64,000 nt of DNA, from assembly GCA_038142145.1 (NCBI GenBank), contig JAYQJM010000005.1, positions 147,978-211,977 on the forward strand, written 5' to 3'. The notes under the pieces are model-generated. The model was not told the origin of the DNA, did no database searches, and saw only the letters and a list, made by a program, of their open reading frames with translations. Made by a program: the position numbers and the translations under genes. Below are positions 7,980-43,573 of this stretch, piece after piece. Position 1 is the stretch's first letter. Each line of letters begins with the position of its first letter. Source of the DNA: Candidatus Actinomarina sp. Lineage in GTDB: Bacteria; Actinomycetota; Acidimicrobiia; Actinomarinales; Actinomarinaceae.

Positions 7980-7989
7980 TAAAAATTAA

Positions 7990-8022
7990 CCGGGAGTAGA
8001 ATTTATACTCCCGGTTTTTTTT
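7990..8022 (+). terminator. Rho-independent terminator after tuf, abutting the rpsJ ribosome-binding site
   Basis: 9-bp perfect stem ccgggagta/tactcccgg (7990-7998 / 8006-8014), 7-nt loop, T8 tract 8015-8022. GAGG and the rpsJ ATG (8032) follow immediately. Confidence 0.85.
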
Positions 8023-26337: not shown

Positions 26338-26405
26338 ATTTAATTAAATAAATAATAAGACTTTTTACATTAAATTCAATTTATAATATTTATAACGAGC
26401 AAATT

Positions 26406-26535
26406 AGCGCCAGGCCTTTTATAGGTGACGAGGTAGTATGTTATCGAAAAATTCGGCGGATGCATACTCGGCTCTACGGTCGTAATAAATTGTTTAAAAA
26501 CAGCAAGAAATTGTTGAACAGAGGCAATTTAACGT
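26406..26535 (+). ncRNA. glmS ribozyme: glmS ribozyme (GlcN6P-dependent self-cleaving leader)
   Basis: Conserved core blocks are read directly: A|GCGCCAG (26406-), GACGAGG, GUUAUCGAA, UUCGGCGGAUGC, CGUAA, UUGAACA. Compensatory helices: AGUAUG 26435-40/CAUACU 26463-68, UAAAUUG 26486-92/CAAUUUA 26525-31, CAGCAA/UUGUUG hairpin. It lies immediately 5' of glmS. Confidence 0.88.
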
Positions 26536-26573
26536 AGTCTTATTTCAACTTGCTCGTTGGAATGGAGAATATA

Positions 26574-28370
26574 ATGTGTGGAATTGTAGGCTACTCAGGC
26601 CCTAAAGAACCTTTACCAATTTTATTAGGTGGTTTATCAAGATTAGAGTATCGAGGATATGACTCTTCTGGAATAGCTATTTTAAACAATAATGACTTAA
26701 TTATTGAAAAAAAAGAAGGCAAGTTATCTTCATTGGTTCAACATCTTGAAGGTAAAACAATTAAAGGCAGTATTGGAATTGGTCACACTAGATGGGCAAC
26801 ACACGGTGTTCCTAGTGATAACAATGCTCATCCTCATTCAGATAATCAAAACGAGTTCGCAATCATTCACAATGGTATTGTTGAAAATTATTCTGAGATG
26901 AAAGATGAACTAATAGAACAAGGCTACACTTTTTCATCTGATACAGATACGGAAGTTGTTGCTGTCGAGTTAAGCAATGAATGGTCAGGCGATCTATTAG
27001 AAACTGTTTTAAATGTAGCAAAAAAACTAGAAGGTACGTATGCACTCGTTGTAACAACAGTGAAACAACCTGATGTAATAGTGGCAGGTAGAATGATGAG
27101 TCCCTTAGTGCTCGGTGTTGGTGACGATGAAGTATTTCTTGCATCTGATTCTGCAGCAATTCTTGAGCACACAAATAAAATGATATTCTTGGAAAATGGG
27201 GATTTTGTAAAAATTGAAAATGGTCATTTTGAACTTTTTGATATAAATAAAAATAAAATTTCAAGAGAAATTCAAGTCATTGATTGGGAAGTTTCTGAAG
27301 CTGAGAAAGGCGGTCATGACCACTTTATGTATAAAGAAATATTAGAGCAACCTGAAGTAATAGAGAGAACAATCAGCGGTCGCTTGGCAGGAAGTGAAAG
27401 CGATATACCTATAAGTAGAGAAGAGGCTCAAAAATTTGAGAAAATATGGATTGTCGCATGTGGAACGGCATATCACGCAGGCTTATTTGGCAAGGATTTG
27501 TTTGAAAAGGTATTAGGTGTACCCGTAAGCGTTGAGTTGGCATCAGAGTTTAGATATAGAGAACCAATTGTTGGAAAGAATGATTTAGGTATAGTCATAT
27601 CACAATCAGGAGAAACAATGGACACAATTGCTGCAACTGAGCTTCTTAAAGAAAATGATGCTCATGTACTAGCATTTGTAAATGTTGTTGGGAGCTCTTT
27701 AGCAAGAATGGCAGATAGCGTGTTGTACCTTCATGTAGGTCCTGAGATTGGTGTTGCTTCTACAAAGGCATATCTTGGCATGCTCATAGGCCAGCTGTTA
27801 GTTGCAAAACACTGGGATGAAGAGAACAAACTAAATATTTCTTATGATGAAATAAATGAATTACCTAAATTAATTCAAGAAACATTAAATTGTGAAGATC
27901 AAATTAAAAGTCTTTCAAAGAAGATTTCAAAAAAGAAAGATATTTATTTTATCGGCAGAGGGCTAGATTATGCACTTGCAGCAGAAGGTGCTTTGAAATT
28001 AAAAGAGATTTCTTATCTTCATGCAGAAGCATTGGCCGCAGGGGAGCTTAAACATGGTACTCTAGCCTTAATTGAAGACGATACTCCTGTAATTGTTACA
28101 GCAAGTCAAAATCATTTATTAGACAAAACAACAAGTAATGTGCAAGAGGTAATTGCTCGTGGGGCGTATGTGATTTCAATTGGAGATAATTCATCTAAAA
28201 AGTTAGAAGACATATCTAATGAATATGTAACTTTACCAACTACATCAGAGGTATTATCAACAATAATTTCTATAATCCCTCTTCAATTTATTGCATATCA
28301 TGTCGCAAATTTGAACGGTGAGTCCATAGATCAACCAAGAAACCTAGCCAAATCTGTTACTGTTGAGTAG
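26574..28370 (+). CDS. glmS: Glutamine--fructose-6-phosphate aminotransferase
   Basis: Start set at ATG 26574 (MCGIVGY, catalytic N-terminal Cys), with GGAG SD 6 nt upstream. Two SIS domains; C-terminal ...KSVTVE. Confidence 0.97.
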   Translation: MCGIVGYSGPKEPLPILLGGLSRLEYRGYDSSGIAILNNNDLIIEKKEGKLSSLVQHLEGKTIKGSIGIGHTRWATHGVPSDNNAHPHSDNQNEFAIIHNGIVENYSEMKDELIEQGYTFSSDTDTEVVAVELSNEWSGDLLETVLNVAKKLEGTYALVVTTVKQPDVIVAGRMMSPLVLGVGDDEVFLASDSAAILEHTNKMIFLENGDFVKIENGHFELFDINKNKISREIQVIDWEVSEAEKGGHDHFMYKEILEQPEVIERTISGRLAGSESDIPISREEAQKFEKIWIVACGTAYHAGLFGKDLFEKVLGVPVSVELASEFRYREPIVGKNDLGIVISQSGETMDTIAATELLKENDAHVLAFVNVVGSSLARMADSVLYLHVGPEIGVASTKAYLGMLIGQLLVAKHWDEENKLNISYDEINELPKLIQETLNCEDQIKSLSKKISKKKDIYFIGRGLDYALAAEGALKLKEISYLHAEALAAGELKHGTLALIEDDTPVIVTASQNHLLDKTTSNVQEVIARGAYVISIGDNSSKKLEDISNEYVTLPTTSEVLSTIISIIPLQFIAYHVANLNGESIDQPRNLAKSVTVE

Positions 28371-31169: not shown

Positions 31170-32163
31170 AGAATTAGTTATTTTAGGTTTTGAAACATCT
31201 TGCGACGAAACTGCGGTTGCAATAATGAGAGGAGATGATTTAGTTGTTAATACAATTTCATCTCAAGTAGAGATTCATGAAAAATTTGGTGGAGTAGTAC
31301 CGGAAGTTGCCTCAAGAGCTCATGCAGAGATGATAAGGAATATTTTTCATAATTCTTTAAATGCTGCAAATCTTCAGATTTCTGATATAGATGTTGTAGC
31401 AACTACAGATGGGCCTGGTCTTGTTGGCAGTTTGGTAGTTGGCTATAACTTTGCGAGATCAATTTCATGGTCAATAGACAAGCCATTATTAACAGTAGAC
31501 CACATGGTAGGTCATTTAGCTGCACCATTAATAGAAAATAGTGAGATGACACCACCATTTCTTACATTACTTGTTTCAGGTGGTCATACTCAAATAGTTC
31601 TTGTGGAAGAGTGGGGAAATTATCAATTATTAGGAACAACCATAGATGATGCTGCTGGTGAAGCTTTTGATAAGCTTTCAAGATTTTGTGGATTTGGTTT
31701 CCCAGGTGGTCCTGCAATTCAAAGAATAGGTGAAAATGGGGATCCAAATAGAGTAGATTTACCAAGACCAAAAACTAAACATGAATTTAACTATTCCTTT
31801 TCTGGGTTAAAAACTGCAGCCACTAACTTTTTAAACAATTTAGATATCAATGATAAGGTTACAAAAGCTGACTTTGCAGCATCTTATCAAGAGGCAATAG
31901 TTGACTCATTAATGAGAAATTTTCAAAAAGCAGTTATTGAAACAGGTGTGCCTAATATTTCTGGTGGAGGAGGAGTCATGGCAAATAGTAGATTAAGGGA
32001 AAAAATGAATTTTTTAGCTTCAGAAAAAGATTTAAATCTATTTTTACCTTCACCCAGGCTCTCAACTGATAATGCTGCCATGATTTGTGTTGCTGCTAAA
32101 AATAACTTAATTACAAACGAATTATTGATCGATGATGTTCGTTTGAGCTCAATTATTAAGTAA
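31162..32163 (+). CDS. tsaD: tRNA N6-adenosine threonylcarbamoyltransferase TsaD
   Basis: GFETSCDETA start and HMVGH metal motif; 333 aa. Confidence 0.96.
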   Translation: MSKELVILGFETSCDETAVAIMRGDDLVVNTISSQVEIHEKFGGVVPEVASRAHAEMIRNIFHNSLNAANLQISDIDVVATTDGPGLVGSLVVGYNFARSISWSIDKPLLTVDHMVGHLAAPLIENSEMTPPFLTLLVSGGHTQIVLVEEWGNYQLLGTTIDDAAGEAFDKLSRFCGFGFPGGPAIQRIGENGDPNRVDLPRPKTKHEFNYSFSGLKTAATNFLNNLDINDKVTKADFAASYQEAIVDSLMRNFQKAVIETGVPNISGGGGVMANSRLREKMNFLASEKDLNLFLPSPRLSTDNAAMICVAAKNNLITNELLIDDVRLSSIIK

Positions 32164-32244
32164 TTTTTAGTTAAATAACTTACATATATAAACCAGACAG
32201 TATTAAATTCACAATGTAGATATTTATGTAGGAGGTAAATATAT

Positions 32245-32535
32245 ATGAATCTTCAACCACTAGGAGATAGAGTTGTTGTAAAACCACTATCCGAAGATGA
32301 TATGAAAACGCCGTCAGGTATATTTATTCCTGATACAGCGAAAGAAAAGCCACAAGAAGGCGAAGTAGTCGCAGTTGGGCCAGGGGAGCCTAATGATAAA
32401 GGTGAAAAAATTAAACCAGATGTTGAAACAGGCGACAAAGTTGTCTATTCAAAATATGGTGGAACTGAAATAAAAGTCGAAGGTGTAGAGTATCTTATTC
32501 TTTCCAGTAGAGATATTCTTGCAAAGCTCGGTTAA
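32245..32535 (+). CDS. groES: Co-chaperonin GroES
   Basis: 96 aa, [12 protein letters not shown] start; AGGAGG SD. Confidence 0.98.
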
Positions 32536-32538
32536 TAG

Positions 32539-34179
<1,641 letters not shown>

Positions 34180-34200
34180 TTTCATTTCATTCAATTTTAA

Positions 34201-34230
34201 AAAAGAGTGGACATTGTTCCACTCTTTTTA
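34201..34230 (+). terminator. Rho-independent terminator after groEL
   Basis: agagtgga (34204-11) / tccactct (34218-25) 8-bp stem, 6-nt loop, T5 tract, A-tract upstream. Confidence 0.8.
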
Positions 34231-34236
34231 TATAGT
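34208..34236 (+). promoter_or_regulatory. Candidate promoter for aroH embedded in the groEL terminator (TGGACA-N17-TATAGT)
   Basis: Near-consensus hexamers with 17-nt spacer. The -10 ends 11 nt before the aroH ATG, so the mRNA would be (near-)leaderless. No SD is visible. Confidence 0.35.
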
Positions 34237-34247
34237 AGGCAAATATT

Positions 34248-34592
34248 ATGAAAAGTATCAGAGGCGCAATTGCAGTTGTTGAAAACAATGAAGAAAGCAT
34301 TATTGAAGCTTCTAAAAGATTAATTTTAGAAATATTAGATAATAACAATCTAATTGAAAACGACATTGTCTCTGCATTATTCACAGTTACTAACGATTTG
34401 GATGCAGCATTTCCAGCAAAAGCATTCAGAGAACTCAATATGACGTCAATTTCCGCACTGGATGCTTTAGCACCAGGTATAAAGAATGATTTAAATGGTT
34501 GTATTAGAGTCCAAATATTAGTTTCAAAAGACCTTAATCAAATCAATCATATTTATTTAGATGAAGCTAAAAACCTAAGGCCAGATAGATAA
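34248..34592 (+). CDS. aroH: Chorismate mutase, AroH (trimeric) class
   Basis: 114 aa; IRGAI..VE.N.EE.I...T..L.......N.....D.VS.LFT.T.DL.A.FPAKA.REL pattern as in Bacillus subtilis AroH. Confidence 0.88.
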   Translation: MKSIRGAIAVVENNEESIIEASKRLILEILDNNNLIENDIVSALFTVTNDLDAAFPAKAFRELNMTSISALDALAPGIKNDLNGCIRVQILVSKDLNQINHIYLDEAKNLRPDR

Positions 34593-34633
34593 AAATTAAT
34601 TTGTAATCTTTATAATCCTGCTATCATATTTTA

Positions 34634-34678
34634 ATGAAAATGAACAAGTCATACTTTTACTTTAGTGAGCACATATAG
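34634..34678 (+). CDS. Putative aromatic-amino-acid leader peptide MKMNKSYFYFSEHI
   Basis: 14-codon ORF with TAC TTT TAC TTT run, 24 nt upstream of an intrinsic terminator that precedes DAHP synthase. TATAAT at 34611-34616. No obvious SD. Confidence 0.55.
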   Translation: MKMNKSYFYFSEHI

Positions 34679-34702
34679 GTTGCCCTAAAGTACGCTGTGT
34701 GG

Positions 34703-34729
34703 AATCGGGCAAAAGCCCGATTTTTTTTT
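34703..34729 (+). terminator. Attenuator terminator in the DAHP-synthase leader
   Basis: aatcgggc / gcccgatt 8-bp stem, aaaa loop, T9 tract running directly into AGGAGG (34730-35) and the GTG start at 34740. Confidence 0.8.
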
Positions 34730-34739
34730 AGGAGGAATA

Positions 34740-35753
34740 GTGATAGTTGTAATGAAACAATCTTCTACAAAAGAAGATATTGAAAAAGTTAAGGAAAAAG
34801 CAATTCAACAAGGACATGAGCCTTTGGTTATTGATGGAGTGGAAAGAAGCGTTGTAGCAATTAGTGGTAAAGTTAATGACGATCACAGAGCAGTTATGAA
34901 ACTCCTTCCTAACGTTAGTAGAGTCATACCGGTTGGAAAGCCATATAAATTAGCTAGTAAAAATTACAAAGATCAAAATTCAATAATAGATATAAAAGGC
35001 TTGAAAGTTGGCGGTGAAAATTTAGCAATAATAGCTGGACCTGACAGTGCAGAAACACAAGAGCAAACTATTGAGACAGCAATTGCTGCAAAAGAAGCTG
35101 GCTCAAATGGTTTAAGAGGTGGAGCTTTCAAACCTAGAACATCACCATATAGCTTTCAAGGAAGAGGAGAAGATGGGCTAAAAATGCTGAAAGAAGCCTC
35201 TGAAATAACTTCACTACCACTATTTAGCGAAATTATGGATGCTCAGCATCTTGAATTAATGGAAGGTTATGTAGATGTTCTACAAATAGGTGCAAGGAAT
35301 ATGCAGAATTTTAAGTTATTAGAAGCTGTAGGTGAATCAAAATTACCTGTTCTTCTAAAAAGAGGAATGTCAGCTACTATAGAAGAACTTCTTTTGGCTA
35401 GTGAGTATATTCTCTCTCGTGGGAACGAAAATGTTATGCTTTGTGAAAGAGGTATAAGAACTTATGAGACCGCAACAAGAAATACTTTCGACATTAATGC
35501 TATCCCATTTTTGAAGCAAAACAGTCATCTACCTGTCATAGCAGACCCAAGCCACGCTACAGGGGATAACAAATTAGTAGAACCAGTTGCGCTAGCTGCT
35601 ATCGCTGCAGGTGCAGATGGTCTATTAATTGAAATTCATCCTAGACCTGATGAAGCTCTTTGTGATGGTCCCCAAGCACTTCTTCCAACAGAACTAAAGC
35701 AATTAATTGACAAAGCATCAATTGTTGCACAAGCAGTAGGTAGGTCTATTTAA
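34740..35753 (+). CDS. aroF: 3-deoxy-7-phosphoheptulonate (DAHP) synthase, type I-beta with N-terminal ferredoxin-like regulatory domain
   Basis: GTG start gives MIVVMK..., colinear with the Thermotoga-type DAHPS (MIVVLK...). LRGGAFKPRTSPYSFQG, IGARNMQNF, CERGIRT, DPSH motifs. Confidence 0.93.
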   Translation: MIVVMKQSSTKEDIEKVKEKAIQQGHEPLVIDGVERSVVAISGKVNDDHRAVMKLLPNVSRVIPVGKPYKLASKNYKDQNSIIDIKGLKVGGENLAIIAGPDSAETQEQTIETAIAAKEAGSNGLRGGAFKPRTSPYSFQGRGEDGLKMLKEASEITSLPLFSEIMDAQHLELMEGYVDVLQIGARNMQNFKLLEAVGESKLPVLLKRGMSATIEELLLASEYILSRGNENVMLCERGIRTYETATRNTFDINAIPFLKQNSHLPVIADPSHATGDNKLVEPVALAAIAAGADGLLIEIHPRPDEALCDGPQALLPTELKQLIDKASIVAQAVGRSI

Positions 35754-36592
35754 TGTTGAACAATGTCCATATAATTGGACTTGGACTGATGGGTACTAAT
35801 TTAGGTATAAACCTTGTCAACAGTGGTGTAAATGTAAGTGGTTATGACACAAATATTGACAGCATTGAAAGAGCTGAGAAGCTTGGGGCAGTAAACATTA
35901 GCCATAATTTAGATTTGACTTATGATGCCGTTGTATTGGCAATGCCAATTGACCAAATAATTAAATTTTTAAGTCTTAAAAATTTGAATTTGAAATCAAA
36001 ATTATTAATTGATTTAGGTGGTACTAAGGAAATTATATGTAAAAAAATGAACTCTTTTGATATTCCCTCTGTAGGCGGGCATCCATTGTGTGGTGTTGCA
36101 GACAATGAGAATTGGCAATCTAATCCTGAAATTTATTTTGGTGCTCCATTTCTATTATGTGAAACTGAATCTAGCAGCAAAGAATCAAAGGCTATTGCCG
36201 AAGCTTTAGTGGAAACTATAGGGTCAAAATTTAAGTGGATTGATTCAAATAAACATGATGAGTTAATTGGTCTAACAAGTCACTTGCCACACATAATAAG
36301 TTCTTCTCTAGTTTCTTTAGCAATGAAAGAGCAAAACTTAAATGAATTATTAGATTTAGCAAGTGGTGGCTTTGATGGTGCAACTAGATTGTCTCGAACT
36401 TCTCCAAACATGATTTCGTCAATGTATCTAACAAATTCTCCAAATGTTAGACAACTTATTGAAAAATTAATTAATGAATTAAAACTTGTTTTAAATATGG
36501 AAGATGAGGAAGTTATGCTCGACTATTTATCAGGAACAGTTGATTGGAGAAGAGCTTTAGCCGAAAAATTTGGAGAGCGTGAGTTAAGCTAA
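35753..36592 (+). CDS. tyrA: Prephenate dehydrogenase
   Basis: IIGLGLMGTNLG Rossmann motif, GGHPLCG, TSHLPH motif; 279 aa. Confidence 0.88.
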   Translation: MLNNVHIIGLGLMGTNLGINLVNSGVNVSGYDTNIDSIERAEKLGAVNISHNLDLTYDAVVLAMPIDQIIKFLSLKNLNLKSKLLIDLGGTKEIICKKMNSFDIPSVGGHPLCGVADNENWQSNPEIYFGAPFLLCETESSSKESKAIAEALVETIGSKFKWIDSNKHDELIGLTSHLPHIISSSLVSLAMKEQNLNELLDLASGGFDGATRLSRTSPNMISSMYLTNSPNVRQLIEKLINELKLVLNMEDEEVMLDYLSGTVDWRRALAEKFGERELS

Positions 36593-37863
36593 TGAATTTT
36601 AGTGGGGGTTCTGTATCAATAGTTGGCGATAAGTCTATTTCTCACAGAGCAGTTATTTTTGGTGCTTTAGCGGAGGGTATCTCAAAAATTAATAATATTT
36701 TAATCTCTGGTGACACTGAAGCAACGATTCAAATATTTCAAAATTTAGGCGTAAGTATCAAGCTGTTAGACCAAAACACTCTAGAGATTAGCGGTGTTGG
36801 TTTGAATGGATTAAAACAGTTTGATGGAGAATTAAATGCAATTAATTCAGGTACAACAGCAAGATTATTAATGGGTCTTCTTTCAAAACAGAATTTTTCT
36901 TCAAGACTTACAGGGAGTAATCAATTAAAAAAAAGACCAATGGATAGAATTATTGATCCACTTGTAGAACAAGGTGCAAAAATTGTTAGTAAAGATAAAT
37001 ATTTACCTGTTGAATTTCAACCAAGTAATTTTAATTTTGATGTTGTCAAAACTAATAAGCCAAGTGCACAAGTAAAAAGCGGTTTGATAATCGCATCATT
37101 GTATAACAAAGAAAACTCATCAACGATTATTGAAGACATCCCCACAAGGGATCATACAGAGAGATTGTTAGGTTATATGGGTGTTGATTTAGTAAGAATG
37201 GGTAATCAAGTAACTATTTCACCTAATGCTAGCTTAAGTCCTGTTAATCTAGCAGTTCCAGGTGATCCTTCTTCCGCAGCTTTTTTAATTGCAATAGGTT
37301 TATTGAGCTGTGAAAAATTAATTATCAATAATCTATTACTTAACGAAAGAAGAATTGGGTTCTTGAAAATAATAAAAAAAATGGGTGGAAATATTTCAAT
37401 TGATAACATACAAAAAATTAATAATGAAAATGTTGGTGATGTAATAATTTTAAAATCGAATCTAAATGGAGTCAGTATAAGCAAAGATGAAGTTGCAGAT
37501 ATGGTTGATGAGTTTCCTATTTTTACTTTGTTAGCTTCTCAAGCAAGTGGTGAAACAACTGTTGTAGGTGCGGAAGAATTAAGAGTGAAAGAGTCAGATC
37601 GTATTGCAGCAATGGAAAAGTTTATTTTGAATTTAGGTGGAGAAATAAGAACCCAAAAAGATGGTTTTAAAATTTCAGGCAAACAATCTTTACAAGCTGG
37701 AACTGTAGAGTCTAATGATGATCATAGGATTGCGATGACTGCTATAGTCGCAAATGTTTGTATAAATTCAAAGATTGAAGTTGATAATATAGATTGTATT
37801 TCTGATTCCTATCCAAGTTTTTTTGAAGATCTTTTAAAGATTGGAGTCCATTATGGCAATTAA
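36592..37863 (+). CDS. aroA: 3-phosphoshikimate 1-carboxyvinyltransferase (EPSP synthase)
   Basis: 423 aa; GDKSISHRA, NSGTTARLL, KESDRI, DDHRIAM motifs. Confidence 0.95.
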   Translation: MNFSGGSVSIVGDKSISHRAVIFGALAEGISKINNILISGDTEATIQIFQNLGVSIKLLDQNTLEISGVGLNGLKQFDGELNAINSGTTARLLMGLLSKQNFSSRLTGSNQLKKRPMDRIIDPLVEQGAKIVSKDKYLPVEFQPSNFNFDVVKTNKPSAQVKSGLIIASLYNKENSSTIIEDIPTRDHTERLLGYMGVDLVRMGNQVTISPNASLSPVNLAVPGDPSSAAFLIAIGLLSCEKLIINNLLLNERRIGFLKIIKKMGGNISIDNIQKINNENVGDVIILKSNLNGVSISKDEVADMVDEFPIFTLLASQASGETTVVGAEELRVKESDRIAAMEKFILNLGGEIRTQKDGFKISGKQSLQAGTVESNDDHRIAMTAIVANVCINSKIEVDNIDCISDSYPSFFEDLLKIGVHYGN

Positions 37864-38650
37864 ACTTGGAATTTTGGGCTGGCCATTAGAAAAAACATTT
37901 TCACCTAAAATTCAAACATATTTAGGTAAACACACTGGTGTGAAGCTTGAATATGAAAAAATTCAATATGAAAATATTACATTAGAGAATATCAATAAAA
38001 TTAATAGAAATTTTCTGGGTTACAATGTAACAATTCCTCATAAATCATCTGTATTCAATTTATTGAGTAAATTAGAAAACGTAGATTTTGATGAAACGGC
38101 TGTCAACACCAAAGTGGTCAACACTGTTAAATCTTCCAAAGACAGAATATTTGTAGCTAATACTGATTTAGTTGGTATAAACCAAACATTTAAATATATG
38201 GATTATTCACTTGCTAATAAAAAAGTTTTAATTCTTGGAAACGGAAGTTCTTCTAAAACATTAACAAGTTTCCTAAACAATAGAGGTAACGTTTATATTG
38301 CATCAAGGAGTGACGAGGAAAATACGATTTCATATGAACAAGTTAACAATATAGCTCATGAAATTAATCTTATTATCAATACAACACCATTAGGGATGCC
38401 ACCCTATGAGAGAGAAAAGCTACCAATAGACATAAAATTATTCAAAAATTTAGAACTTTTTTTCAATTTAGGTTACGGCTTAAGCAAAAATTGGGTAAAT
38501 GGAATTACTCTTAATAAAGTAGAATATGTGGATGGACTTATAATGTTGATAGGCCAAGCAATCGAGTCTTTTAATATTTGGACTGATAAAAATATAAAAT
38601 TTGATGAATTTTATGAAAAAATTTTGAATGAGGTTATAAATGAGAATTAA
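37853..38650 (+). CDS. aroE: Shikimate dehydrogenase
   Basis: ATG 37853 (MAIKLGILGWPLEKTFSPKIQ) preferred over the TTG at 37841. NVTIPHK motif; GNGSSSK dinucleotide loop. Confidence 0.9.
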   Translation: MAIKLGILGWPLEKTFSPKIQTYLGKHTGVKLEYEKIQYENITLENINKINRNFLGYNVTIPHKSSVFNLLSKLENVDFDETAVNTKVVNTVKSSKDRIFVANTDLVGINQTFKYMDYSLANKKVLILGNGSSSKTLTSFLNNRGNVYIASRSDEENTISYEQVNNIAHEINLIINTTPLGMPPYEREKLPIDIKLFKNLELFFNLGYGLSKNWVNGITLNKVEYVDGLIMLIGQAIESFNIWTDKNIKFDEFYEKILNEVINEN

Positions 38651-39821
38651 ATATTTAACAGCTGGTGAAAGCCATGGCCCCGAACTCAATGCAATCATTG
38701 AAGGGATTCCCTCAAATTTTGAAATTAGTAAAGAGTTTATAGATAATTTTCTTGAAAGAAGACAAAAAGGCTCTGGATCTGGTGGAAGAATGAATATTGA
38801 AAAAGATGCAGTTTCAATAAGTTCAGGAGTTGTTAATAACAAGAGTACTGGAGGTCCAATAGCTCTTAAAATAATTAATAAAGATTGGAAAAACTGGCAA
38901 AGTAAAGAAATAGAACCATTCAATGTCCCTCGTCCAGGTCATGCAGATCTTGTAGGAACTCTTAAATATAAACATACTGACATTAGGCACTCTCTAGAAA
39001 GAGCTAGTGCTAGAGAAACTGCTATAAGAACTGCTGTAGGTGCTGTTTGCTCTCAAGTATTACAAAGTTTAAATATCAATATTATGGGTTTTGTTTCTTC
39101 AATTGGTGAATTTTCAATTGATTTAAATCAAATTGTAAACGACGAAGAATTAAGAAATAAAGTAATCAACTCAAACGTTTCCTGTCCTGATGAAAGTATT
39201 TCAGCTCAAATGGAGGAAGCAATTAAAGAAGCAAGAAAAAATAAAGATACTTTAGGTGGTGCTATTACTTGCATAGCTGAAAATTTTCCTCCAGGATGTG
39301 GTAGCTATGTACATTTTGATAGAAAACTAGATGCAAAAATTGCATCTTCTATGATGTCAGTTCAAAGTGTTAAAGCAGTTGAGATTGGTAATGGTGTAGA
39401 ATCATCAAAATCATTTGGTACTAAAGTTCAAGATCAAATCGAATTAGAGAATAAATCATTAAAGAGGATTAGCAACAATTTAGGTGGTTTTGAAGGTGGA
39501 ATGACCACAGGAGAGAAAATAGTTATCACATCTTTTTTAAAGCCAATTAGCACAACGCTTACACCTATAAAAAGTGTTGATTTAGCATCAAAAAAAGAAA
39601 CAAAAACTGAATATGAAAGGTCAGACACTTGTGCTGTTCCCAGAGCAGTCCCAATCTTTGAAAGTGTATTAGCTATAGATTTGTTAAATGCTTTATTAAT
39701 TAAAACTGGTGGTGATTCAAAACAAGAAATTTCTGAAAGACTCACTAAATTAAGAGAATATTCTATAGACGATTTCAAACTAGCAAATGAAACTTGGCAA
39801 ATGAACTATGAAATTGAATAA
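38640..39821 (+). CDS. aroC: Chorismate synthase
   Basis: TAGESHGPEL start, RPGHAD, ERASARETA motifs; 393 aa. Confidence 0.96.
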   Translation: MRIKYLTAGESHGPELNAIIEGIPSNFEISKEFIDNFLERRQKGSGSGGRMNIEKDAVSISSGVVNNKSTGGPIALKIINKDWKNWQSKEIEPFNVPRPGHADLVGTLKYKHTDIRHSLERASARETAIRTAVGAVCSQVLQSLNINIMGFVSSIGEFSIDLNQIVNDEELRNKVINSNVSCPDESISAQMEEAIKEARKNKDTLGGAITCIAENFPPGCGSYVHFDRKLDAKIASSMMSVQSVKAVEIGNGVESSKSFGTKVQDQIELENKSLKRISNNLGGFEGGMTTGEKIVITSFLKPISTTLTPIKSVDLASKKETKTEYERSDTCAVPRAVPIFESVLAIDLLNALLIKTGGDSKQEISERLTKLREYSIDDFKLANETWQMNYEIE

Positions 39822-40308
39822 AACTTACAGTATATGTGGATACATGGGAGTTGGAAAAACCTCTTTGATCAAAAAAGTTATGCAAAAAAAAAATTTCAAA
39901 TGTTTAGATCTTGATGAATTTATAGAAGAAAAATATGGTCCAATAGATAATATTTTCGAATCAAAAGGGGAGAGTTATTTTAGAGAGATTGAAGAAATAG
40001 AATATTTTGAAAATTTAGAAAGTTTTGACCTAATCGCACTCGGAGGAGGTTCATTAGAAAATTCAAGCATCCACAATCATGTTATTAGCAGTGATAGTGG
40101 TATTTATTTAGAATCAAGTTTTGAAGAGTTGTGGAGTCGAATTAGAGATTCCAACAGACCTCTAGTTACAGAAGGAAGGGAAGAAAACTATCAGAGATTT
40201 TTGAGAAGGATTAAGCTTTATGAAGGTTGCAAATTTAAGATTAGTGAAACCAATCTAGATGACATATTTGATAAATTGATAGAAATAATTGATAACAATG
40301 AAAACTAA
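39808..40308 (+). CDS. aroK: Shikimate kinase
   Basis: GYMGVGKTS P-loop, FRE.E motif, LGGG; 166 aa. Confidence 0.88.
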   Translation: MKLNKTYSICGYMGVGKTSLIKKVMQKKNFKCLDLDEFIEEKYGPIDNIFESKGESYFREIEEIEYFENLESFDLIALGGGSLENSSIHNHVISSDSGIYLESSFEELWSRIRDSNRPLVTEGREENYQRFLRRIKLYEGCKFKISETNLDDIFDKLIEIIDNNEN

Positions 40309-41290
40309 AGTAACTTACTTAAATACAAATAGTGAATTTATTGAAAATATAAATTTATCAAATTTCGATTTAATTGTTGCAGATTCAAATTTGCAAAATT
40401 TAAAATTTGATAACAATTTAAGTGTAAGCATTGAATATTTGCTGGTATCAGAAGAGAAAAAAATTCTAAGTACAGTTGAAACAATTTGGGAAGTGTTTTT
40501 CAATTACGATTTAAATAGAAATAGTAAAATTCTCTTCATTGGCGGGGGTGTTTTACTTGATTTGTGTGCATTTGCTGCAAGTACTTATAAAAGGGGTGTT
40601 GATTTTTCATTAGCTCCCTCAACACTTTTAGGAATGGTTGATGCTGCTCATGGAGGTAAAAACGGGTTTAATAATGAATTTGGTAAGAACCAAATAGGCA
40701 CCTTTTCCAAACCATCAAATGTCTTAGTATGCTTTGAGTTATTAAATGAATTACCTGAAAGTATTTATAAAGATGGCCTAATTGAACTGATCAAACATGG
40801 TCTTATTGGCGATAAAGGTATATTTAATTATTTGATAAATAGTCAAACTCATCACATAACTTTTGAAGTATTAAAAGATGGCATACATGTCAAAACTTCA
40901 ATCACAGATATTGATTTTCTTGAGAGCAATAAGAGGAAGCTCCTAAATTTTGGTCATACGATTGGACATCTTATTGAAAAAGATTCTGATTATGAAATTT
41001 CTCATGGTCAAGCTGTTGCTATGGGAATATATTATGAAATGATACTGTCAAAAAATCATTTGAATCTAGATGATAAAGTTATAAATCAATATATTGAATT
41101 TCTAGATAAAATAAAATACCAAAATACTTATAAATTTAAATCTTCAAAGGAAGAATTGATTGCAAGACTTAAAAACGATAAAAAAAGTCATAATGAGAGT
41201 GTTGAGATAATATTATTAAATCAAATTTCAGATCCTCAAATTGTTGAACTTAATTTCTCAGAAGTAATGGAAGTAATTGAGTATGAATAA
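40298..41290 (+). CDS. aroB: 3-dehydroquinate synthase
   Basis: ATG 40298 preferred (the track ORF starts at TTG 40289). GGGVLLDL, metal-ligand HTIGHLIE and HGQAVAMG motifs. Confidence 0.9.
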   Translation: MKTKVTYLNTNSEFIENINLSNFDLIVADSNLQNLKFDNNLSVSIEYLLVSEEKKILSTVETIWEVFFNYDLNRNSKILFIGGGVLLDLCAFAASTYKRGVDFSLAPSTLLGMVDAAHGGKNGFNNEFGKNQIGTFSKPSNVLVCFELLNELPESIYKDGLIELIKHGLIGDKGIFNYLINSQTHHITFEVLKDGIHVKTSITDIDFLESNKRKLLNFGHTIGHLIEKDSDYEISHGQAVAMGIYYEMILSKNHLNLDDKVINQYIEFLDKIKYQNTYKFKSSKEELIARLKNDKKSHNESVEIILLNQISDPQIVELNFSEVMEVIEYE

Positions 41291-41720
41291 AGTAGAAATT
41301 GTAAATGGTCCTAATTTAAATTTTTTAGGTATTCGTGAAATAGAAAAGTATGGTTCGGCAAGTTATAAAGATCTAGTAAATACTCTTGAAGAAAAAGCAA
41401 GGGAGCTAAATCTTGAATTAAAATTTTTTCAATCGAATATTGAAGGTGAAATAGTAGATGTTTTGCAAAATTCATTTCAAGCTTCAGAATGGATTGTCAT
41501 AAATCCAGGTGCATATACTCATACAAGTATTGCCATTAGAGATTGCTTAGCTTACTTATCAACCAAGTTAAAAATTATTGAAGTTCACTTAACAGATATA
41601 AACAATAGAGAAAATTTTAGAAATATAAATTTAATTTCAGAATTCTGTGAAAAGTCAATTATCGGCAAAGGAATAGATGGTTATATAGAGGCATTGGAGT
41701 ACATAAATGAACAACATTGA
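41283..41720 (+). CDS. aroQ: 3-dehydroquinate dehydratase, type II
   Basis: ATG 41283 gives MNKVEIVNGPNLNFLGIRE; NPGAYTHTSIAIRD motif. Confidence 0.94.
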   Translation: MNKVEIVNGPNLNFLGIREIEKYGSASYKDLVNTLEEKARELNLELKFFQSNIEGEIVDVLQNSFQASEWIVINPGAYTHTSIAIRDCLAYLSTKLKIIEVHLTDINNRENFRNINLISEFCEKSIIGKGIDGYIEALEYINEQH

Positions 41721-42528
41721 AAAGATTGCTTACCAAGGTTCACCAGGTTCTTATTCAGAAGAGTTGTTAAAAAAAGAATTTCAAAACTCCCAATACTTAT
41801 CTTGTAACTCTTTCGCAGAGCTTGTAGAAAATGTATCAGCAAATAATACTTATGGACTTTTACCAGTTGAAAATTCAATTGCAGGAACTGTTATTGAAGC
41901 ATATGAAGAATTGATTGATAGTGATTTGAAAATTTTCGCAGAGTATATTAAAAAAATTGATCATTCTTTGATAGGATTACCAGGATCTAATTTAAATCAA
42001 ATAAATCAAGTTATTTCTCATCCTCAAGCTCTTCAGCAATGTAGTAAATTTATTCAAGAAAATAATTTTAAGATTTCACCGGTTTTTGATACTGCTGGAA
42101 GTTTAATAGAACTTGAGGAAAAACAAGATATGTCAATCGCAGCCATAGCCGGTATACATTTTGAAAATAATTCAAAGTTTGAAATTTTGAAAAAGAATAT
42201 AGCAAATCATAGTGAAAATTTTACGAGATTTTTTCTTATTGGGAATAATGAACCTGATAATAATTTGATAAAAAATAAATATTCATCAGTATTAATTTCA
42301 GATGATAAACCAGGTTCGTTATTAAAGACATTAAATATTTTTAGTGATTTAAATATAAATTTAACAAAACTTGAGTCACGTCCAATATTGGGAAGACCTT
42401 GGGAGTACAAGTTTTATATAGACTACGAATTGGGGGAGTATGATATTCAAGAAAACCTTGTAGTCAAAATTGAAGAGGTTTCAAAAGAATTTAAAATTCT
42501 TGGACATTATCCAAAAGCTAATATTTAA
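41707..42528 (+). CDS. pheA: Prephenate dehydratase with C-terminal ACT domain
   Basis: AYQGSPGSYSE, NFTRFFLIG, TKLESRP motifs; 273 aa; no fused chorismate mutase. Confidence 0.93.
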   Translation: MNNIEKIAYQGSPGSYSEELLKKEFQNSQYLSCNSFAELVENVSANNTYGLLPVENSIAGTVIEAYEELIDSDLKIFAEYIKKIDHSLIGLPGSNLNQINQVISHPQALQQCSKFIQENNFKISPVFDTAGSLIELEEKQDMSIAAIAGIHFENNSKFEILKKNIANHSENFTRFFLIGNNEPDNNLIKNKYSSVLISDDKPGSLLKTLNIFSDLNINLTKLESRPILGRPWEYKFYIDYELGEYDIQENLVVKIEEVSKEFKILGHYPKANI

Positions 42529-42532
42529 AGAT

Positions 42533-43573
42533 TTAACTATCTTCTACTTGAATGTCTGCATTTTCTAAAATATTTCTTAATAAGTCAGAAACATCATATT
42601 TTTTTTCATTTCTTAAATCTTTCCTGAGTTGATTTATTTCATTAACTATCATTTCAAGAGCATGTGTATTTTTTATATTTTTTTCAACTTGAATTTCTAA
42701 ATCAGCAATTTTTTTCGAAAGCTCATCTTTAATATTTGTTTTTTCTTTTTTGGTTGGTTGAGATTCAATAAAATTTGATTCTGATAGGTAGCTTTGAATA
42801 TCACTCAACTTTCCTTCAGAGCCACTTTCAAAAACAACATTATTATCTTTTGTTACTAAAGTCACATTTCCCAGACCTTTTACTTTGTATCTGTTGTCTC
42901 TACCAGTAATTATTAATGCAGTATGCTCATCAATTCCAAGCAAGTTAGTGTACTCAATATTTAACAAGCTATTAATTCTTTTTGCACCAACATAACTGTA
43001 ACTTGTATCATGGTTGCCTCCTTCTTTGTTATTAAAGTGAGGGACAACTGTACAGTTTAAATCAAACAATTTAAGAATATTTAAACCTTTTTCCCAATAA
43101 GGATCTATCCCGACTTTATATATTTCGTATACAGGAAGTGTAAATTCACCTAAAGTTGAAGCTGCAGCACTTGCAAATAATGCTTTTCCACCTTTATTAA
43201 TATGATTTTTAAAAAGATTCTCTATTTCTCCTTTAGCCCAAAGCTTGCTTGCATAACTTGGACTTCCGGGACCAGCAAAAATAAACTCAGCTTTTTCTAA
43301 TAGTGCAATAGTTTTAAAAAATTGTGGTGTGTTTAAATCAGACATCTTTCTGAAAGTGGCTAATTTAATATCAGTATTTAAACTAGTTTTATAAAATTCA
43401 ATTAACTTATCTACTAATAAATCTGCATTTTCTTGGAATCCAAAAGGTGAGTCTAAAATATAAGAGCTGTTTTTTTCGTTACAATCTTCCAGAAGCTCTC
43501 TATGAACGCTTACAAGGTTAGGGCTAGTCTCCCCAGAACCTAAAATTGCGATTGTACCTAACGTTGTAGACAT
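42533..43573 (-). CDS. Conserved hypothetical protein: class-I glutamine-amidotransferase/peptidase-S51-like N-domain, then a coiled coil and a CysRS-C-terminus-like tail
   Basis: ILGSGETSP start, IFAGPGSP and FASAAASTLG blocks, PHFNNKEGG. The C-terminal RKDLRNEKKYDVSDLLRNILENADIQVEDS resembles the extreme C-terminus of cysteinyl-tRNA synthetases. Family assignment is by eye only. Confidence 0.45.
   Translation of the reverse strand: MSTTLGTIAILGSGETSPNLVSVHRELLEDCNEKNSSYILDSPFGFQENADLLVDKLIEFYKTSLNTDIKLATFRKMSDLNTPQFFKTIALLEKAEFIFAGPGSPSYASKLWAKGEIENLFKNHINKGGKALFASAAASTLGEFTLPVYEIYKVGIDPYWEKGLNILKLFDLNCTVVPHFNNKEGGNHDTSYSYVGAKRINSLLNIEYTNLLGIDEHTALIITGRDNRYKVKGLGNVTLVTKDNNVVFESGSEGKLSDIQSYLSESNFIESQPTKKEKTNIKDELSKKIADLEIQVEKNIKNTHALEMIVNEINQLRKDLRNEKKYDVSDLLRNILENADIQVEDS

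What the first reader, a model, noticed from the sequence alone, without database searches (positions are those of the whole stretch)
34593..34739. Tyr/Phe-rich leader peptide plus terminator: putative ribosome-mediated attenuator of the aromatic (shikimate) operon
The 147-nt aroH/DAHP-synthase gap contains a 14-codon ORF, ATG AAA ATG AAC AAG TCA TAC TTT TAC TTT AGT GAG CAC ATA TAG (34634-34678, MKMNKSYFYFSEHI), with four consecutive Tyr/Phe codons. A clean intrinsic terminator follows 24 nt later (aatcgggc-aaaa-gcccgatt plus T9, 34703-34729). Its T-tract runs straight into AGGAGG and the GTG start of DAHP synthase. Alternative pairings are visible. TACTTTAG (34658-65, the regulatory codons) is perfectly complementary to CTAAAGTA (34685-92). 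TTGCCC (34680-85, just past the leader stop) is complementary to GGGCAA (34707-12, the 5' arm and loop of the terminator). A ribosome stalled on YFYF would free the segment after the stop codon to compete with the terminator, while a ribosome reaching the stop would mask it. A TATAAT at 34611-16 could start the leader transcript. The controlled enzyme also carries an N-terminal allosteric domain, so the pathway would be regulated at two levels. Caveats: there is no obvious SD before the leader ORF, and the antiterminator is only 6 bp.
Basis: partly seen in the sequence, partly recalled or inferred. Interest (0 to 1): 0.72.

Follow-up and report, generated by a model that had tools for sequence, protein, structure and literature searches.

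The report
Tyr/Phe leader-peptide attenuator of aro operon
The gap in front of the aromatic amino-acid operon of this uncultured marine actinobacterium holds a tiny gene rich in tyrosine and phenylalanine codons plus a transcription stop signal. This is a classic sensor that most likely switches the operon on when those two amino acids run short; it is well conserved but of a kind already known.

Summary
The interpretation, a ribosome-mediated attenuator, is supported by comparative evidence.

- **Conservation of the mini-ORF.** I collected 49 distinct leader variants from marine metagenomes, whose DAHP synthases are 76-100 % identical to the window's. All keep the ATG, the reading frame, an aromatic run [Y/F]-F-Y-F, a stop codon (TAG or TAA) and the terminator. 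One lineage has lost exactly one codon. Synonymous sites of the neighbouring gene are saturated.
- **Two corrections.**
  - The conserved promoter is -35 TTTGTA (34600-05), then TG plus -10 TATCAT (34619-27). It ends 6 nt (6-8 nt in relatives) before the ATG, so the leader is most likely translated from a leaderless mRNA. That explains the missing Shine-Dalgarno sequence.
- **Weak point.** The antiterminator is only GCCC:GGGC plus up to two A-U pairs. No stem shows covariation, because all are invariant.
- **Organism.** It is an actinobacterium, probably Ca. Actinomarinales, a group reported to be Trp auxotrophs. That fits a leader with Tyr and Phe codons but no Trp codon.
- **Novelty.** Leaderless leader peptides are usual in Actinobacteria, and Corynebacterium glutamicum has an F-Y-F leader (aroR) before aroF. 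This is a new member of a known kind, of moderate interest.

The parts
34201..34228 (+). Intrinsic terminator of groEL. It overlaps the -35 of the aroH promoter, and an invariant -10-like TATAGT follows at 34231-34236.
   Evidence: Hairpin AAAAGAGTGGAC/GTCCACTCTTTT seen. It shows compensatory stem changes in relatives (GAGTGGAC/GTCCACTC, GAGCGGAC/GTCCGCTC, AGGTGGAC/GTCCACCT). TATAGT is invariant in 8 lineages.
34248..34592 (+). aroH, AroH-class chorismate mutase. Its transcripts must run into the leader region and would end at the attenuator terminator.
   Evidence: Pfam CM_1, E = 5e-35. No terminator lies between its stop codon and 34701.
34600..34605 (+). -35 element of the leader promoter (TTTGTA; TTTGCA or TTGGCA in relatives).
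   Evidence: T34600, T34601 and A34605 are invariant and G34603 is at least 90 % conserved in 66 distinct sequences. It matches the actinobacterial 'ttgnca' -35 motif (PMC3890552). The spacer to the -10 is 16 nt.
34619..34627 (+). Extended -10 element TGcTATCAT (TGnTAnnnT).
   Evidence: T34619, G34620, T34622, A34623 and T34627 are invariant in 66 distinct sequences while the positions between them vary. The element ends 6 nt before the ATG here and 6-8 nt in relatives.
34634..34678 (+). Leader-peptide ORF MKMNKSYFYFSEHI*, probably translated from a leaderless mRNA that starts at or near A34634.
   Evidence: The ORF is kept in 49 of 49 distinct leader variants: the ATG is invariant, the frame is kept, the stop is TAG or TAA, and one lineage is shorter by exactly one codon. 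No Shine-Dalgarno sequence is present in any relative.
34652..34663 (+). Regulatory codons TAC TTT TAC TTT (Y-F-Y-F).
   Evidence: Codon 7 is TAC, TAT or TTT (always Tyr or Phe). Codon 8 is TTT. Codon 9 is TAC or TAT. Codon 10 is TTT in every variant.
34650..34654 (+). Outer helix, 5' side (CAUAC), pairing with GUGUG at 34697-34701.
   Evidence: It appears in the minimum-free-energy folds. Complementarity between the A/C-rich codons 4-7 and the G/U-rich spacer is kept in relatives in shifting registers. Cognate duplexes average -5.75 against -5.19 kcal/mol for non-cognate ones (permutation p = 0.006), and mean z is -1.4 against shuffled spacers.
34658..34672 (+). Region 1: the 5' strand of the 1:2 hairpin, covering codons 9-13.
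   Evidence: It pairs with 34679-34692, and 96.9 % of cells are paired in 49 sequences. The loop AUAUAG (34673-78) contains the stop codon.
34679..34692 (+). Region 2: the 3' strand of the 1:2 hairpin. Its UUGCCC (34680-85) is the proposed antiterminator strand.
   Evidence: GCCC is invariant. It lies within about 13 nt of the stop codon, so a terminating ribosome would mask it (inference).
34693..34702 (+). Variable G/U-rich spacer.
   Evidence: This is the only rapidly varying part of the transcript. It is complementary both to codons 4-7 and to CACAUAUAR.
34701..34729 (+). Intrinsic terminator (regions 3 and 4): stem 34702/3-34722/3, loop AAAA at 34711-14, nine T at 34721-29. GGGCAA (34707-12) is the antiterminator partner.
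   Evidence: 10 pairs, 5 G-C. The hairpin alone is -14.5 kcal/mol. The stem is identical in all 8 protein-retrieved lineages.
34730..34735 (+). Shine-Dalgarno sequence AGGAGG of the DAHP synthase gene, directly abutting the T-tract.
   Evidence: Read. No room is left for a promoter between the terminator and the gene.
34740..42528 (+). The controlled operon: aroF (DAHP synthase with FXD domain), tyrA, aroA, aroE, aroC, aroK, aroB, aroQ, pheA. The ORFs overlap or abut.
   Evidence: Pfam assignments. Gaps between the ORFs are -23 to -1 nt.

Best explanation
This is a ribosome-mediated (leader-peptide) transcription attenuator. It gates a nine-gene operon for the whole shikimate pathway plus the Tyr and Phe branches.

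**Transcript and translation.** A conserved sigma-A-type promoter (-35 at 34600-05, extended -10 at 34619-27) starts transcription at or within a couple of bases of A34634. The 14-codon leader is therefore read from a leaderless mRNA.

**No ribosome, or a ribosome that has terminated and left.**
- Codons 9-13 (34658-72) pair with the segment after the stop codon (34679-92).
- Codons 4-7 pair with the G/U-rich spacer.
- The terminator (34701-29) forms and transcription stops before the DAHP synthase gene.

**Ribosome at the stop codon (34676-78).** It covers UUGCCC (34680-85), which gives the same outcome.

**Tyr-tRNA or Phe-tRNA scarce.**
- The ribosome stalls on Y-F-Y-F (34652-63) and covers region 1.
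- The freed GCCC(UU) segment captures GGGC(AA) of the terminator's 5' arm as it emerges.
- RNA polymerase reads through into the operon.

**aroH transcripts.** The same hairpin also terminates aroH transcripts arriving from upstream, in which the leader ATG is internal and has no SD.

**What is shown and what is inferred.** Shown: conservation of the ORF, the aromatic codons, the promoter geometry and the hairpins. Inferred: the leaderless start, the stalling, the antiterminator kinetics and the response to amino-acid supply.
For: 1. **The ORF behaves as a translated ORF.**
   - All 49 distinct leader variants keep the ATG, the frame and a stop codon (TAG or TAA).
   - The only indel inside the ORF is one whole codon, whereas indels in the flanking non-coding parts are 1 nt.
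   - Codon 7 changes TAC, TAT, TTT, always Tyr or Phe.
   - N-terminal codons 2-6 vary freely.
2. **Selection is strong.** DAHP synthase third-codon positions are only 46-52 % identical between lineages, which is saturated. The leader from codon 7 to the terminator is 81-94 % identical.
3. **The search was unbiased with respect to the ORF.** A metagenome scan with the terminator alone gave 96 stretches. Seven of them are unrelated terminators. Every aro-locus hit that could be examined keeps the ORF, except the deletion variant L143. Protein-based retrieval down to 76 % identity agrees.
4. **The promoter is conserved.** T, G, T, A and T of TGnTAnnnT are invariant in 66 distinct sequences and end 6-8 nt before the invariant ATG. 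No SD is present in any relative.
5. **Leaderless leader peptides are the norm in Actinobacteria** (PMC8079986; PMC5784534).
6. **The folds fit the model.**
   - The unmasked fold is the 1:2 hairpin plus the terminator in 49 of 49 variants.
   - With a ribosome mask at codon 9 or 10 and the 3' arm not yet made, GCCC:GGGC is the minimum-free-energy pairing in 47 and 49 of 49 (mean probability 0.96 and 0.99).
7. **The operon depends on read-through.** The T-tract abuts the SD of the first gene, so the operon can only be expressed by reading through.
8. **The attenuator stems are frozen** in the 8 lineages where the plain groEL terminator, 500 nt upstream, shows compensatory changes. This is what is expected if each G/C block must pair with two alternative partners.
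9. **The biology fits.** The operon encodes both tyrA and pheA. The probable host order is reported to be a Trp auxotroph (PMC7771536), which matches a leader with Y and F codons but no W.
10. **A precedent exists.** The aroR leader (F-Y-F) lies before aroF in C. glutamicum (PMC11802643, PMC3890552).
Against: - No base pair of the 1:2 hairpin, the antiterminator or the terminator shows a compensatory change. The structures rest on conservation and energy alone.
- The antiterminator is short. Its two A-U pairs are lost without compensation in 9 and 5 of 49 variants, leaving 4 G-C pairs. With the full transcript the terminator always wins thermodynamically, so the switch has to be kinetic.
- Codons 8-14 are almost invariant at synonymous positions too: TTT only, GAG only, ATA only. 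The loop ACAUAUAR is also invariant. Peptide coding does not explain this, which leaves room for an RNA-level function.
- The leader uses the minor codons TAC, GAG and CAC of this genome.
- The transcript start, translation of the ORF and any response to amino acids are untested.
- The invariance of the terminator in the metagenome set is partly by construction, because it was the search key.
Confidence: 0.8

Rival explanations
1. The hairpin is a plain, partly leaky terminator that ends the aroH transcript. The aro operon is then expressed by constitutive read-through or from the internal promoter, and the mini-ORF is neither translated nor regulatory.
For: The same 'T-tract runs into the next SD' layout occurs after tuf and before rpsJ in this window (7988-8016). 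It may therefore simply be how this compact genome sets expression ratios. The antiterminator is weak.
Against: This cannot explain several observations. The ATG, the frame, the stop codon and the aromatic run are conserved across lineages whose synonymous sites are saturated. The single indel in the ORF is a whole codon. A promoter is conserved at a fixed 6-8 nt from the ATG. In addition, a 147-nt spacer is unusual in a group with 2-bp median spacers (PMC7771536).
Confidence: 0.07
2. The invariant hairpin around the stop codon (34657-34692) is an RNA sensor, either a small riboswitch or the binding site of a regulatory protein. It stabilises or melts the 1:2 structure and so controls the terminator. 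The ORF would be secondary.
For: Nucleotide-level invariance includes synonymous positions and the loop ACAUAUAR. This is more than a leader peptide needs.
Against: No Rfam family matches the gap even at E up to 10. The hairpin is small, at about 35 nt. ORF-specific features (the codon-sized indel, Y/F-only substitutions at codon 7, the TAG/TAA switch) point to translation. The invariance can also be explained by three-way pairing constraints (regions 1:2, 2:3 and 3:4).
Confidence: 0.08
3. The ORF encodes a small functional peptide that acts in trans, or a nascent peptide that arrests the ribosome at the EHI-stop, rather than sensing tRNA charging at the Y/F codons.
For: The C-terminal E-H-I-stop is nearly invariant.
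Against: The same bases form the 1:2 stem, which is enough to explain their conservation. The N-terminus varies freely. Nothing suggests that a 14-residue peptide of this composition has a function of its own. Arrest-peptide logic would be unusual for a biosynthetic operon.
Confidence: 0.04

Closest known systems
aroR-aroF attenuator of Corynebacterium glutamicum (Neshat et al. 2014, as summarised in PMC11802643 and PMC3890552)
   Same: Both occur in an actinobacterium. In both, a short leader ORF with an F-Y-F motif lies directly upstream of the DAHP synthase gene, and ribosome stalling at Phe/Tyr codons is reported to raise transcription of the downstream operon. The YFYF or FFYF run here contains F-Y-F.
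   Different: No sequence comparison with AroR was possible, because the primary paper is not held. Here the controlled unit is a nine-gene operon for the whole pathway including tyrA and pheA. The DAHP synthase carries an N-terminal ferredoxin-like domain. The host is an AT-rich uncultured marine lineage. In C. glutamicum only Phe limitation had an effect (PMC11802643); which amino acid matters here is unknown.
Leaderless leader peptides of actinobacterial attenuators (trpL, leuL and ilvL of Streptomyces lividans, PMC8079986; ilvB leader of C. diphtheriae, PMC5784534)
   Same: These are 12-18-codon leaders that start at the transcription start site and have no SD. They are followed by hairpins and a U-rich stretch, upstream of amino-acid biosynthesis genes.
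   Different: Those starts were mapped by RNA-seq. Here the leaderless start is inferred from a conserved TGnTAnnnT placed 6-8 nt before the ATG. The amino-acid specificity also differs (Tyr/Phe).
Classical enterobacterial attenuators (E. coli trpL and pheL)
   Same: They share the four-region logic: regulatory codons in region 1, a stop codon between regions 1 and 2, and a terminator formed by regions 3:4 directly before the first structural gene. The spacing of 4 codons between the last regulatory codon and the stop resembles trpL (my own knowledge).
   Different: Those leaders have an SD and a 5' UTR, and their 2:3 antiterminators are much longer. pheL controls only pheA. Here the antiterminator is 4-6 bp and the mRNA is probably leaderless.
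T-box leaders
   Same: They also sense tRNA charging and control a terminator. They precede homologous FXD-type DAHP synthase genes in Firmicutes metagenome-assembled genomes (L012, L013, L040).
   Different: No T-box is detected here. The whole gap of 147 nt is shorter than a T-box leader. Sensing would go through the ribosome, not through direct tRNA binding.

Membership tests
Ribosome-mediated (leader-peptide) transcription attenuator | A short ORF upstream of a biosynthetic operon, enriched in codons for the pathway's end products | tested here: met
   A 14-codon ORF with Y-F-Y-F lies before an operon that contains tyrA and pheA. The chance of such an ORF in shuffles of the gap is 0.18 %.
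Ribosome-mediated (leader-peptide) transcription attenuator | The ORF, its frame and its regulatory codons are conserved in relatives | tested here: met
   49 of 49 distinct variants keep them. Codon 7 is only ever Tyr or Phe. The stop switches between TAG and TAA. One lineage is shorter by one whole codon. The neighbouring gene's synonymous sites are saturated.
Ribosome-mediated (leader-peptide) transcription attenuator | An intrinsic terminator between the leader ORF and the first structural gene, with no promoter downstream of it | tested here: met
   The terminator has 10 pairs plus T9 and abuts the SD. It is present in all protein-retrieved relatives.
Ribosome-mediated (leader-peptide) transcription attenuator | Mutually exclusive pairings 1:2, 2:3 (antiterminator) and 3:4, positioned so that a stalled ribosome frees region 2 and a terminating ribosome masks it | tested here: inconclusive
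   The 1:2 and 3:4 pairings are clear. The 2:3 pairing is only GCCC:GGGC plus 0-2 A-U pairs. It is the minimum-free-energy pairing of the nascent RNA with a masked region 1 in 47-49 of 49 variants, but it loses to the terminator at equilibrium.
Ribosome-mediated (leader-peptide) transcription attenuator | Covariation supporting the alternative helices | tested here: inconclusive
   No pair has a change on both sides. Most pairs never vary, which counts neither for nor against. The outer helix gives only weak co-variation signals.
Ribosome-mediated (leader-peptide) transcription attenuator | A translation-initiation signal for the leader ORF | tested here: inconclusive
   There is no SD in any relative. 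A conserved extended -10 lies 6-8 nt before the invariant ATG, which fits a leaderless 5'-AUG start. The transcript start has not been mapped.
Ribosome-mediated (leader-peptide) transcription attenuator | Read-through rises when the cognate charged tRNA is scarce | not testable with these tools
   This needs Term-seq or a reporter under Phe/Tyr limitation.
aroR-aroF type attenuator (C. glutamicum) | A leader ORF with an F-Y-F motif directly upstream of the DAHP synthase gene in an actinobacterium | tested here: met
   YFYF or FFYF occurs in all variants. The DAHP synthase assignment is from Pfam. Actinobacterial origin is supported by RpoC, whose best solved relatives are, by my knowledge of the entries, Streptomyces and Mycobacterium, and by the rimI-tsaD-groES-groEL gene order.
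aroR-aroF type attenuator (C. glutamicum) | Sequence homology of the leader or attenuator to aroR | not tested
At 14 codons, homology would be hard to establish in any case.
T-box leader | Match to the T-box covariance model (specifier loop, T-box sequence) | tested here: not met
   There is no Rfam hit in the gap at gathering score or at E up to 10. The same search finds T-boxes before the homologous genes of Firmicutes.
Any described riboswitch or cis-regulatory RNA (Rfam 15) | Match to a curated covariance model | tested here: not met
   The only family hit in the window is the glmS ribozyme at 26395-26541.

The most novel reading that the evidence does not exclude
The invariant stop-codon hairpin (34657-34692) may be more than a passive 1:2 stem. 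This includes its unvarying loop ACAUAUAR and the frozen codons E-H-I-stop. It could be a second, direct sensor: a minimal RNA element that binds an aromatic metabolite or a protein, or a site where the nascent peptide arrests the ribosome at the stop codon. Such a sensor would act on top of codon-level stalling in a genome with very few regulators.
Probability: 0.08. Interest if true: 0.7.

Novelty: new member of a known kind. Interest (0 to 1): 0.38.

Why it matters
- **One element, a whole pathway.** In one of the most streamlined free-living bacterial groups (about 1.1 Mb, 2-bp median spacers, two sigma factors; PMC7771536), control of the entire shikimate/Tyr/Phe pathway appears to be packed into about 130 nt. 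That stretch holds a promoter, a leaderless 14-codon sensor and one hairpin that also terminates the upstream gene.
- **Concrete targets for data and experiment.** It offers a conserved target for metatranscriptome analysis, namely 5' ends at the ATG and 3' ends at the T-tract. It is also a compact Phe/Tyr-responsive part that could be tested in Corynebacterium or Mycobacterium.
- **Limits.** It is not a new principle. Leader-peptide attenuation, leaderless leaders in Actinobacteria and an F-Y-F leader before aroF are all already described.

Tried and rejected
- **Scan of reference genomes.** In those 79 loci, short ORFs with at least 3 aromatic residues upstream of the gene turned up in 7. 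Where I inspected the DNA they are artefacts of T-rich terminators, and T-box leaders precede the gene in L012, L013 and L040.
- **Rfam.** Searches at gathering score and at E up to 10 found nothing in the gap.
- **Covariation.**
  - RNAalifold and explicit pair counts for 1:2, 2:3 and 3:4 found no compensatory change. The stems are simply invariant, so this neither supports nor refutes them.
  - The outer helix (codons 4-7 with the spacer) cannot be aligned column by column because the register shifts. Duplex-energy tests gave only modest signals.
- **Alternative hairpin CAUAUAG/CUGUGUG.** It appears in constrained folds. Spacers are somewhat complementary to it in relatives (mean z about -1), but I could not assign it a role.
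- **Sequestration of the SD.** Pairing of CCUAAA (34684-89) with UUUAGG (34727-32) was considered and dropped, because the junction between the T-tract and the SD is not conserved.
TATAAT at 34611-16 is rejected because it is absent from most relatives.
- **Taxonomy.** It could not be read from any record. Cluster look-ups gave protein names only.
- **Primary aroR paper.** It is not held.
Full report
**1. What is in the sequence**

- The gap 34593-34739 separates an AroH-class chorismate mutase (34248-34592; Pfam CM_1) from a DAHP synthase with an N-terminal ferredoxin-like regulatory domain (34740-35753; PF18152 plus PF00793).
- The gap contains the ORF ATG34634 to TAG34678 (MKMNKSYFYFSEHI).
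- It contains the complementary octamers 34658-65 and 34685-92, and the hexamers TTGCCC (34680-85) and GGGCAA (34707-12).
- It contains a hairpin aatcgggc/aaaa/gcccgatt followed by a run of nine T. That run ends one base before AGGAGG and the GTG start codon.
- The terminator scan reports this as the only terminator-like site in 32000-36000.
- The gap folds at -40.1 kcal/mol, 4 standard deviations better than dinucleotide shuffles, into exactly the 1:2 hairpin plus the terminator.
- An ATG-initiated ORF with four consecutive Phe/Tyr codons arises in 0.18 % of shuffles of the 108 nt before the terminator.

**2. Context and organism**

- Downstream lie eight further overlapping or abutting ORFs after the DAHP synthase gene: tyrA, aroA, aroE, aroC, aroK, aroB, aroQ and pheA. 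The terminator therefore stands in front of the whole common pathway and both the Tyr and the Phe branch.
- Upstream the order is rimI-tsaD-groES-groEL-aroH. Larger ORFs before these are consistent with ribosomal-protein operons, glmM, glmS (preceded by a glmS ribozyme) and alr. I named those by size and position only and did not test them. From my own knowledge this is the gene order of Mycobacterium.
- The RpoC fragment matches, over its full length, solved beta' chains that I know to be from Streptomyces and Mycobacterium (1303-1347 bits). It scores lower against the chain I know as Bacillus subtilis (1213 bits) and lower still against the remaining chains listed (1040-1190 bits), which include a chain deposited as E. 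coli RNA polymerase beta' at 1038 bits.
- The window has 33.4 % G+C. Identical or near-identical copies occur only in marine metagenomes and assemblies (GOS, TARA), on contigs up to 0.9-1.1 Mb.
- Together this points to Candidatus Actinomarinales. That order is described as having 32.5 % GC, about 1.1 Mb, 2-bp median intergenic spacers, two sigma factors, and auxotrophy for Trp, His and Arg (PMC7771536). This assignment is an inference; no record named the organism.

**3. Relatives**

- Protein-based look-ups of DAHP synthases 76-100 % identical to the window's gave 18 loci (L081-L098), all with the same synteny.
I scanned the metagenome collection with the terminator alone (ATCGGGCAAARGCCCGATTTTT), leaving the ORF unconstrained.
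- Of 96 stretches found, seven are unrelated terminators. Every other hit that could be examined is this locus.
- After removing duplicates there are 66 distinct promoter-plus-leader sequences (alignment A3) and 49 distinct leader transcripts (A4).
- Their DAHP synthases span 76-100 % amino-acid identity.
- At that distance third-codon positions of the DAHP synthase gene are only 46-52 % identical, which is saturated. The leader from codon 7 to the terminator remains 81-94 % identical, and most differences lie in a 10-13-nt spacer.

**4. Evidence that the ORF is read as an ORF**

- All 49 variants keep the ATG, the frame and a stop codon at the same place. The stop is TAG in some lineages and TAA in others.
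- The one length change inside the ORF is the loss of exactly three bases (MKINTYFYFRAHI lineage). Indels in the flanking non-coding parts are single bases.
- Codons 2-6 vary freely (MKMNKS, MKLNNT, MKTVTT, MNLKNR and others).
- Codon 7 is TAC, TAT or TTT, so it is always Tyr or Phe. Codons 8 and 10 are TTT, and codon 9 is TAC or TAT.
- One contig (L143) carries a deletion that fuses aroH in frame to ...NTYFYFREHI*. It is a single contig and an in-frame outcome has a one-in-three chance, so I treat it as a curiosity.

**5. The promoter and the missing Shine-Dalgarno sequence**

- What is invariant in all 66 sequences is T34619, G34620, T34622, A34623 and T34627. This is an extended -10 element, TGnTAnnnT, whose other positions vary.
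- A -35-like TTTGTA (TTTGCA or TTGGCA in relatives) lies 16 nt upstream at 34600-05.
- These match the actinobacterial sigma-A motifs TAnnnT and ttgnca (PMC3890552).
- The -10 ends 6 nt before the ATG here and 6-8 nt in relatives. The transcript should therefore begin at or right next to the A of the ATG.
- No relative has an SD before the leader.
- In Actinobacteria about a third of mRNAs are leaderless (PMC3890552). The mapped leader peptides of S. lividans (leuL, trpL, ilvL and others) and the ilvB leader of C. diphtheriae are leaderless (PMC8079986, PMC5784534).
- Several other genes in this window also have a TAnnnT 6-7 nt before their start codon and no SD.
- The leaderless start is therefore a well-motivated inference, but it has not been mapped.

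**6. RNA structures**

- Without a ribosome, all 49 variants fold into the 1:2 hairpin and the terminator. The hairpin pairs 34658-72 with 34679-92, and its loop AUAUAG contains the stop codon.
- An outer helix joins the A/C-rich codons 4-7 to the G/U-rich spacer (CAUAC/GUGUG here; ACAAUAC/GUAUUGU, ACAAC/GUUGU and ACGUA/UACGU in relatives).
- The register of that helix shifts, so I tested it by duplex energies.
  - Cognate pairs are slightly better than non-cognate ones (-5.75 against -5.19 kcal/mol; p = 0.006, ignoring phylogeny).
  - They are also better than shuffled spacers (mean z = -1.4).
- I masked the RNA up to 13 nt past the A-site to mimic a ribosome at codon 9 or 10, and cut the RNA before the terminator's 3' arm. 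The minimum-free-energy fold then pairs GCCC (34682-85) with GGGC (34707-10) in 47 and 49 of 49 variants.
- A ribosome at the stop codon covers that segment. This outcome follows from how the mask was set.
- With the complete transcript the terminator always wins, so any switch must be kinetic.

**7. Weak points**

- No pair in 1:2, 2:3 or 3:4 shows a compensatory change, and most never vary.
- The two A-U pairs of the antiterminator are lost without compensation in 9 and 5 of 49 variants.
- Codons 8-14 and the loop are frozen even at synonymous positions, and they use minor codons of this genome (TAC, GAG, CAC). Coding does not explain that.
- Part of it can be explained by multi-partner constraints:
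  - G34667, G34669 and C34670 pair with G34682 and C34683-84;
  - GCCC (34682-85) also pairs with GGGC (34707-10);
  - that GGGC also pairs with the 3' arm GCCC (34715-18).

  A change would therefore need three or four simultaneous substitutions.
- In support of this, the plain groEL terminator 500 nt upstream does show compensatory changes in the same eight lineages in which the attenuator stems are identical.
- The invariant loop remains unexplained. An alternative hairpin CAUAUAG/CUGUGUG is possible.
- The terminator's invariance in the metagenome set is partly by construction. In the protein-retrieved set it is not.

**8. Mechanism proposed**

This is a classical four-region attenuator driven by a leaderless leader.

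- Stalling on Y-F-Y-F masks region 1 and frees GCCC to trap GGGC, which gives read-through.
- A ribosome that reaches the stop codon, or the absence of a ribosome, lets the terminator form.
- aroH has its own conserved -10 (TATAGT, 34231-36) just after the groEL terminator, and no terminator of its own. aroH transcripts should therefore end at the same hairpin.
- A leader with Tyr and Phe codons but no Trp codon fits an operon that carries tyrA and pheA. It also fits a host group reported to lack Trp synthesis (PMC7771536).

I put 0.8 on ribosome-mediated attenuation and about 0.65 on the leaderless detail.

**9. Comparison with what is known**

- The closest described system is the aroR leader peptide (F-Y-F) upstream of aroF in C. 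glutamicum. Read-through there rises under Phe limitation (PMC11802643, citing Neshat et al. 2014; also PMC3890552 and PMC7356990).
- Leaderless leader peptides are the rule in Actinobacteria (PMC8079986, PMC5784534).
- In Firmicutes metagenome-assembled genomes, homologous FXD-type DAHP synthase genes are preceded by T-box leaders instead. No T-box or other Rfam family matches here.
- I therefore file this as a new member of a known kind. It has not, as far as my literature searches showed, been described for this marine lineage, but the principle is not new.

**10. Verdict**

- Observation: confirmed.
- Interpretation: supported, with a corrected promoter and an explanation for the missing SD.
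- Antiterminator and regulation: inferred, not shown.
- Interest: moderate (0.38).

Noticed in passing
window 26395-26541 (+): A glmS ribozyme (Rfam RF00234, 85 bits, full length) lies directly upstream of the ORF 26550-28370, which I take to be glmS from its size and position. It is the only Rfam family hit in the 64 kb window.
   Followed up: no
window 7988-8016 (+): A strong terminator (11 pairs, 6 G-C) follows the 394-aa ORF that I take to be tuf. Its T-tract runs straight into GAGG and the ATG of the next gene (8032, probably rpsJ). This is the same 'terminator abutting the next SD' layout as at the aro leader, but there is no room for a leader ORF.
   Followed up: partly
window 34201-34236 (+); alignment A5: The groEL terminator shows compensatory stem changes among relatives. 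An invariant TATAGT sits right after its T-run, 6 to 11 nt before the aroH start. The aroH promoter therefore seems to be nested in the groEL terminator, and aroH may itself be leaderless in some lineages.
   Followed up: partly
L143 (reverse strand), about 25-400 nt upstream of the terminator match at 432-453: One metagenome contig has a deletion that removes the aroH stop codon, the leader promoter and the first four leader codons. It fuses aroH in frame to NTYFYFREHI*. This is either a natural variant in which aroH-translating ribosomes read the regulatory codons, or an assembly artefact.
   Followed up: partly
L012 3540-3827, L013 3558-3830, L040 964-1239: In Firmicutes metagenome-assembled genomes, homologous DAHP synthase genes with the ferredoxin-like domain are preceded by T-box leaders. 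The same enzyme type is thus under tRNA-sensing control by a different device.
   Followed up: partly
window starts at 24176(+), 28557(+), 43573(-), 51334(+), 53513(+): Several first-in-operon genes have a TAnnnT hexamer ending 6-7 nt before the start codon and no Shine-Dalgarno sequence. This suggests that leaderless mRNAs are common in this genome.
   Followed up: no
L121, L131, L167, L185: Some metagenome contigs look mosaic at this locus. L121 has the window-type leader with another lineage's SD region. L131 carries two different leader variants in opposite orientation on a 2.5-kb contig. In L167 and L185 the sequence diverges a few codons into the DAHP synthase gene. These are probably recombination or chimeric assembly.
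   Followed up: no
window 42533-43573 (-): A 346-aa ORF right after the aro operon, on the opposite strand, has no Pfam match at E up to 0.001.
   Followed up: no
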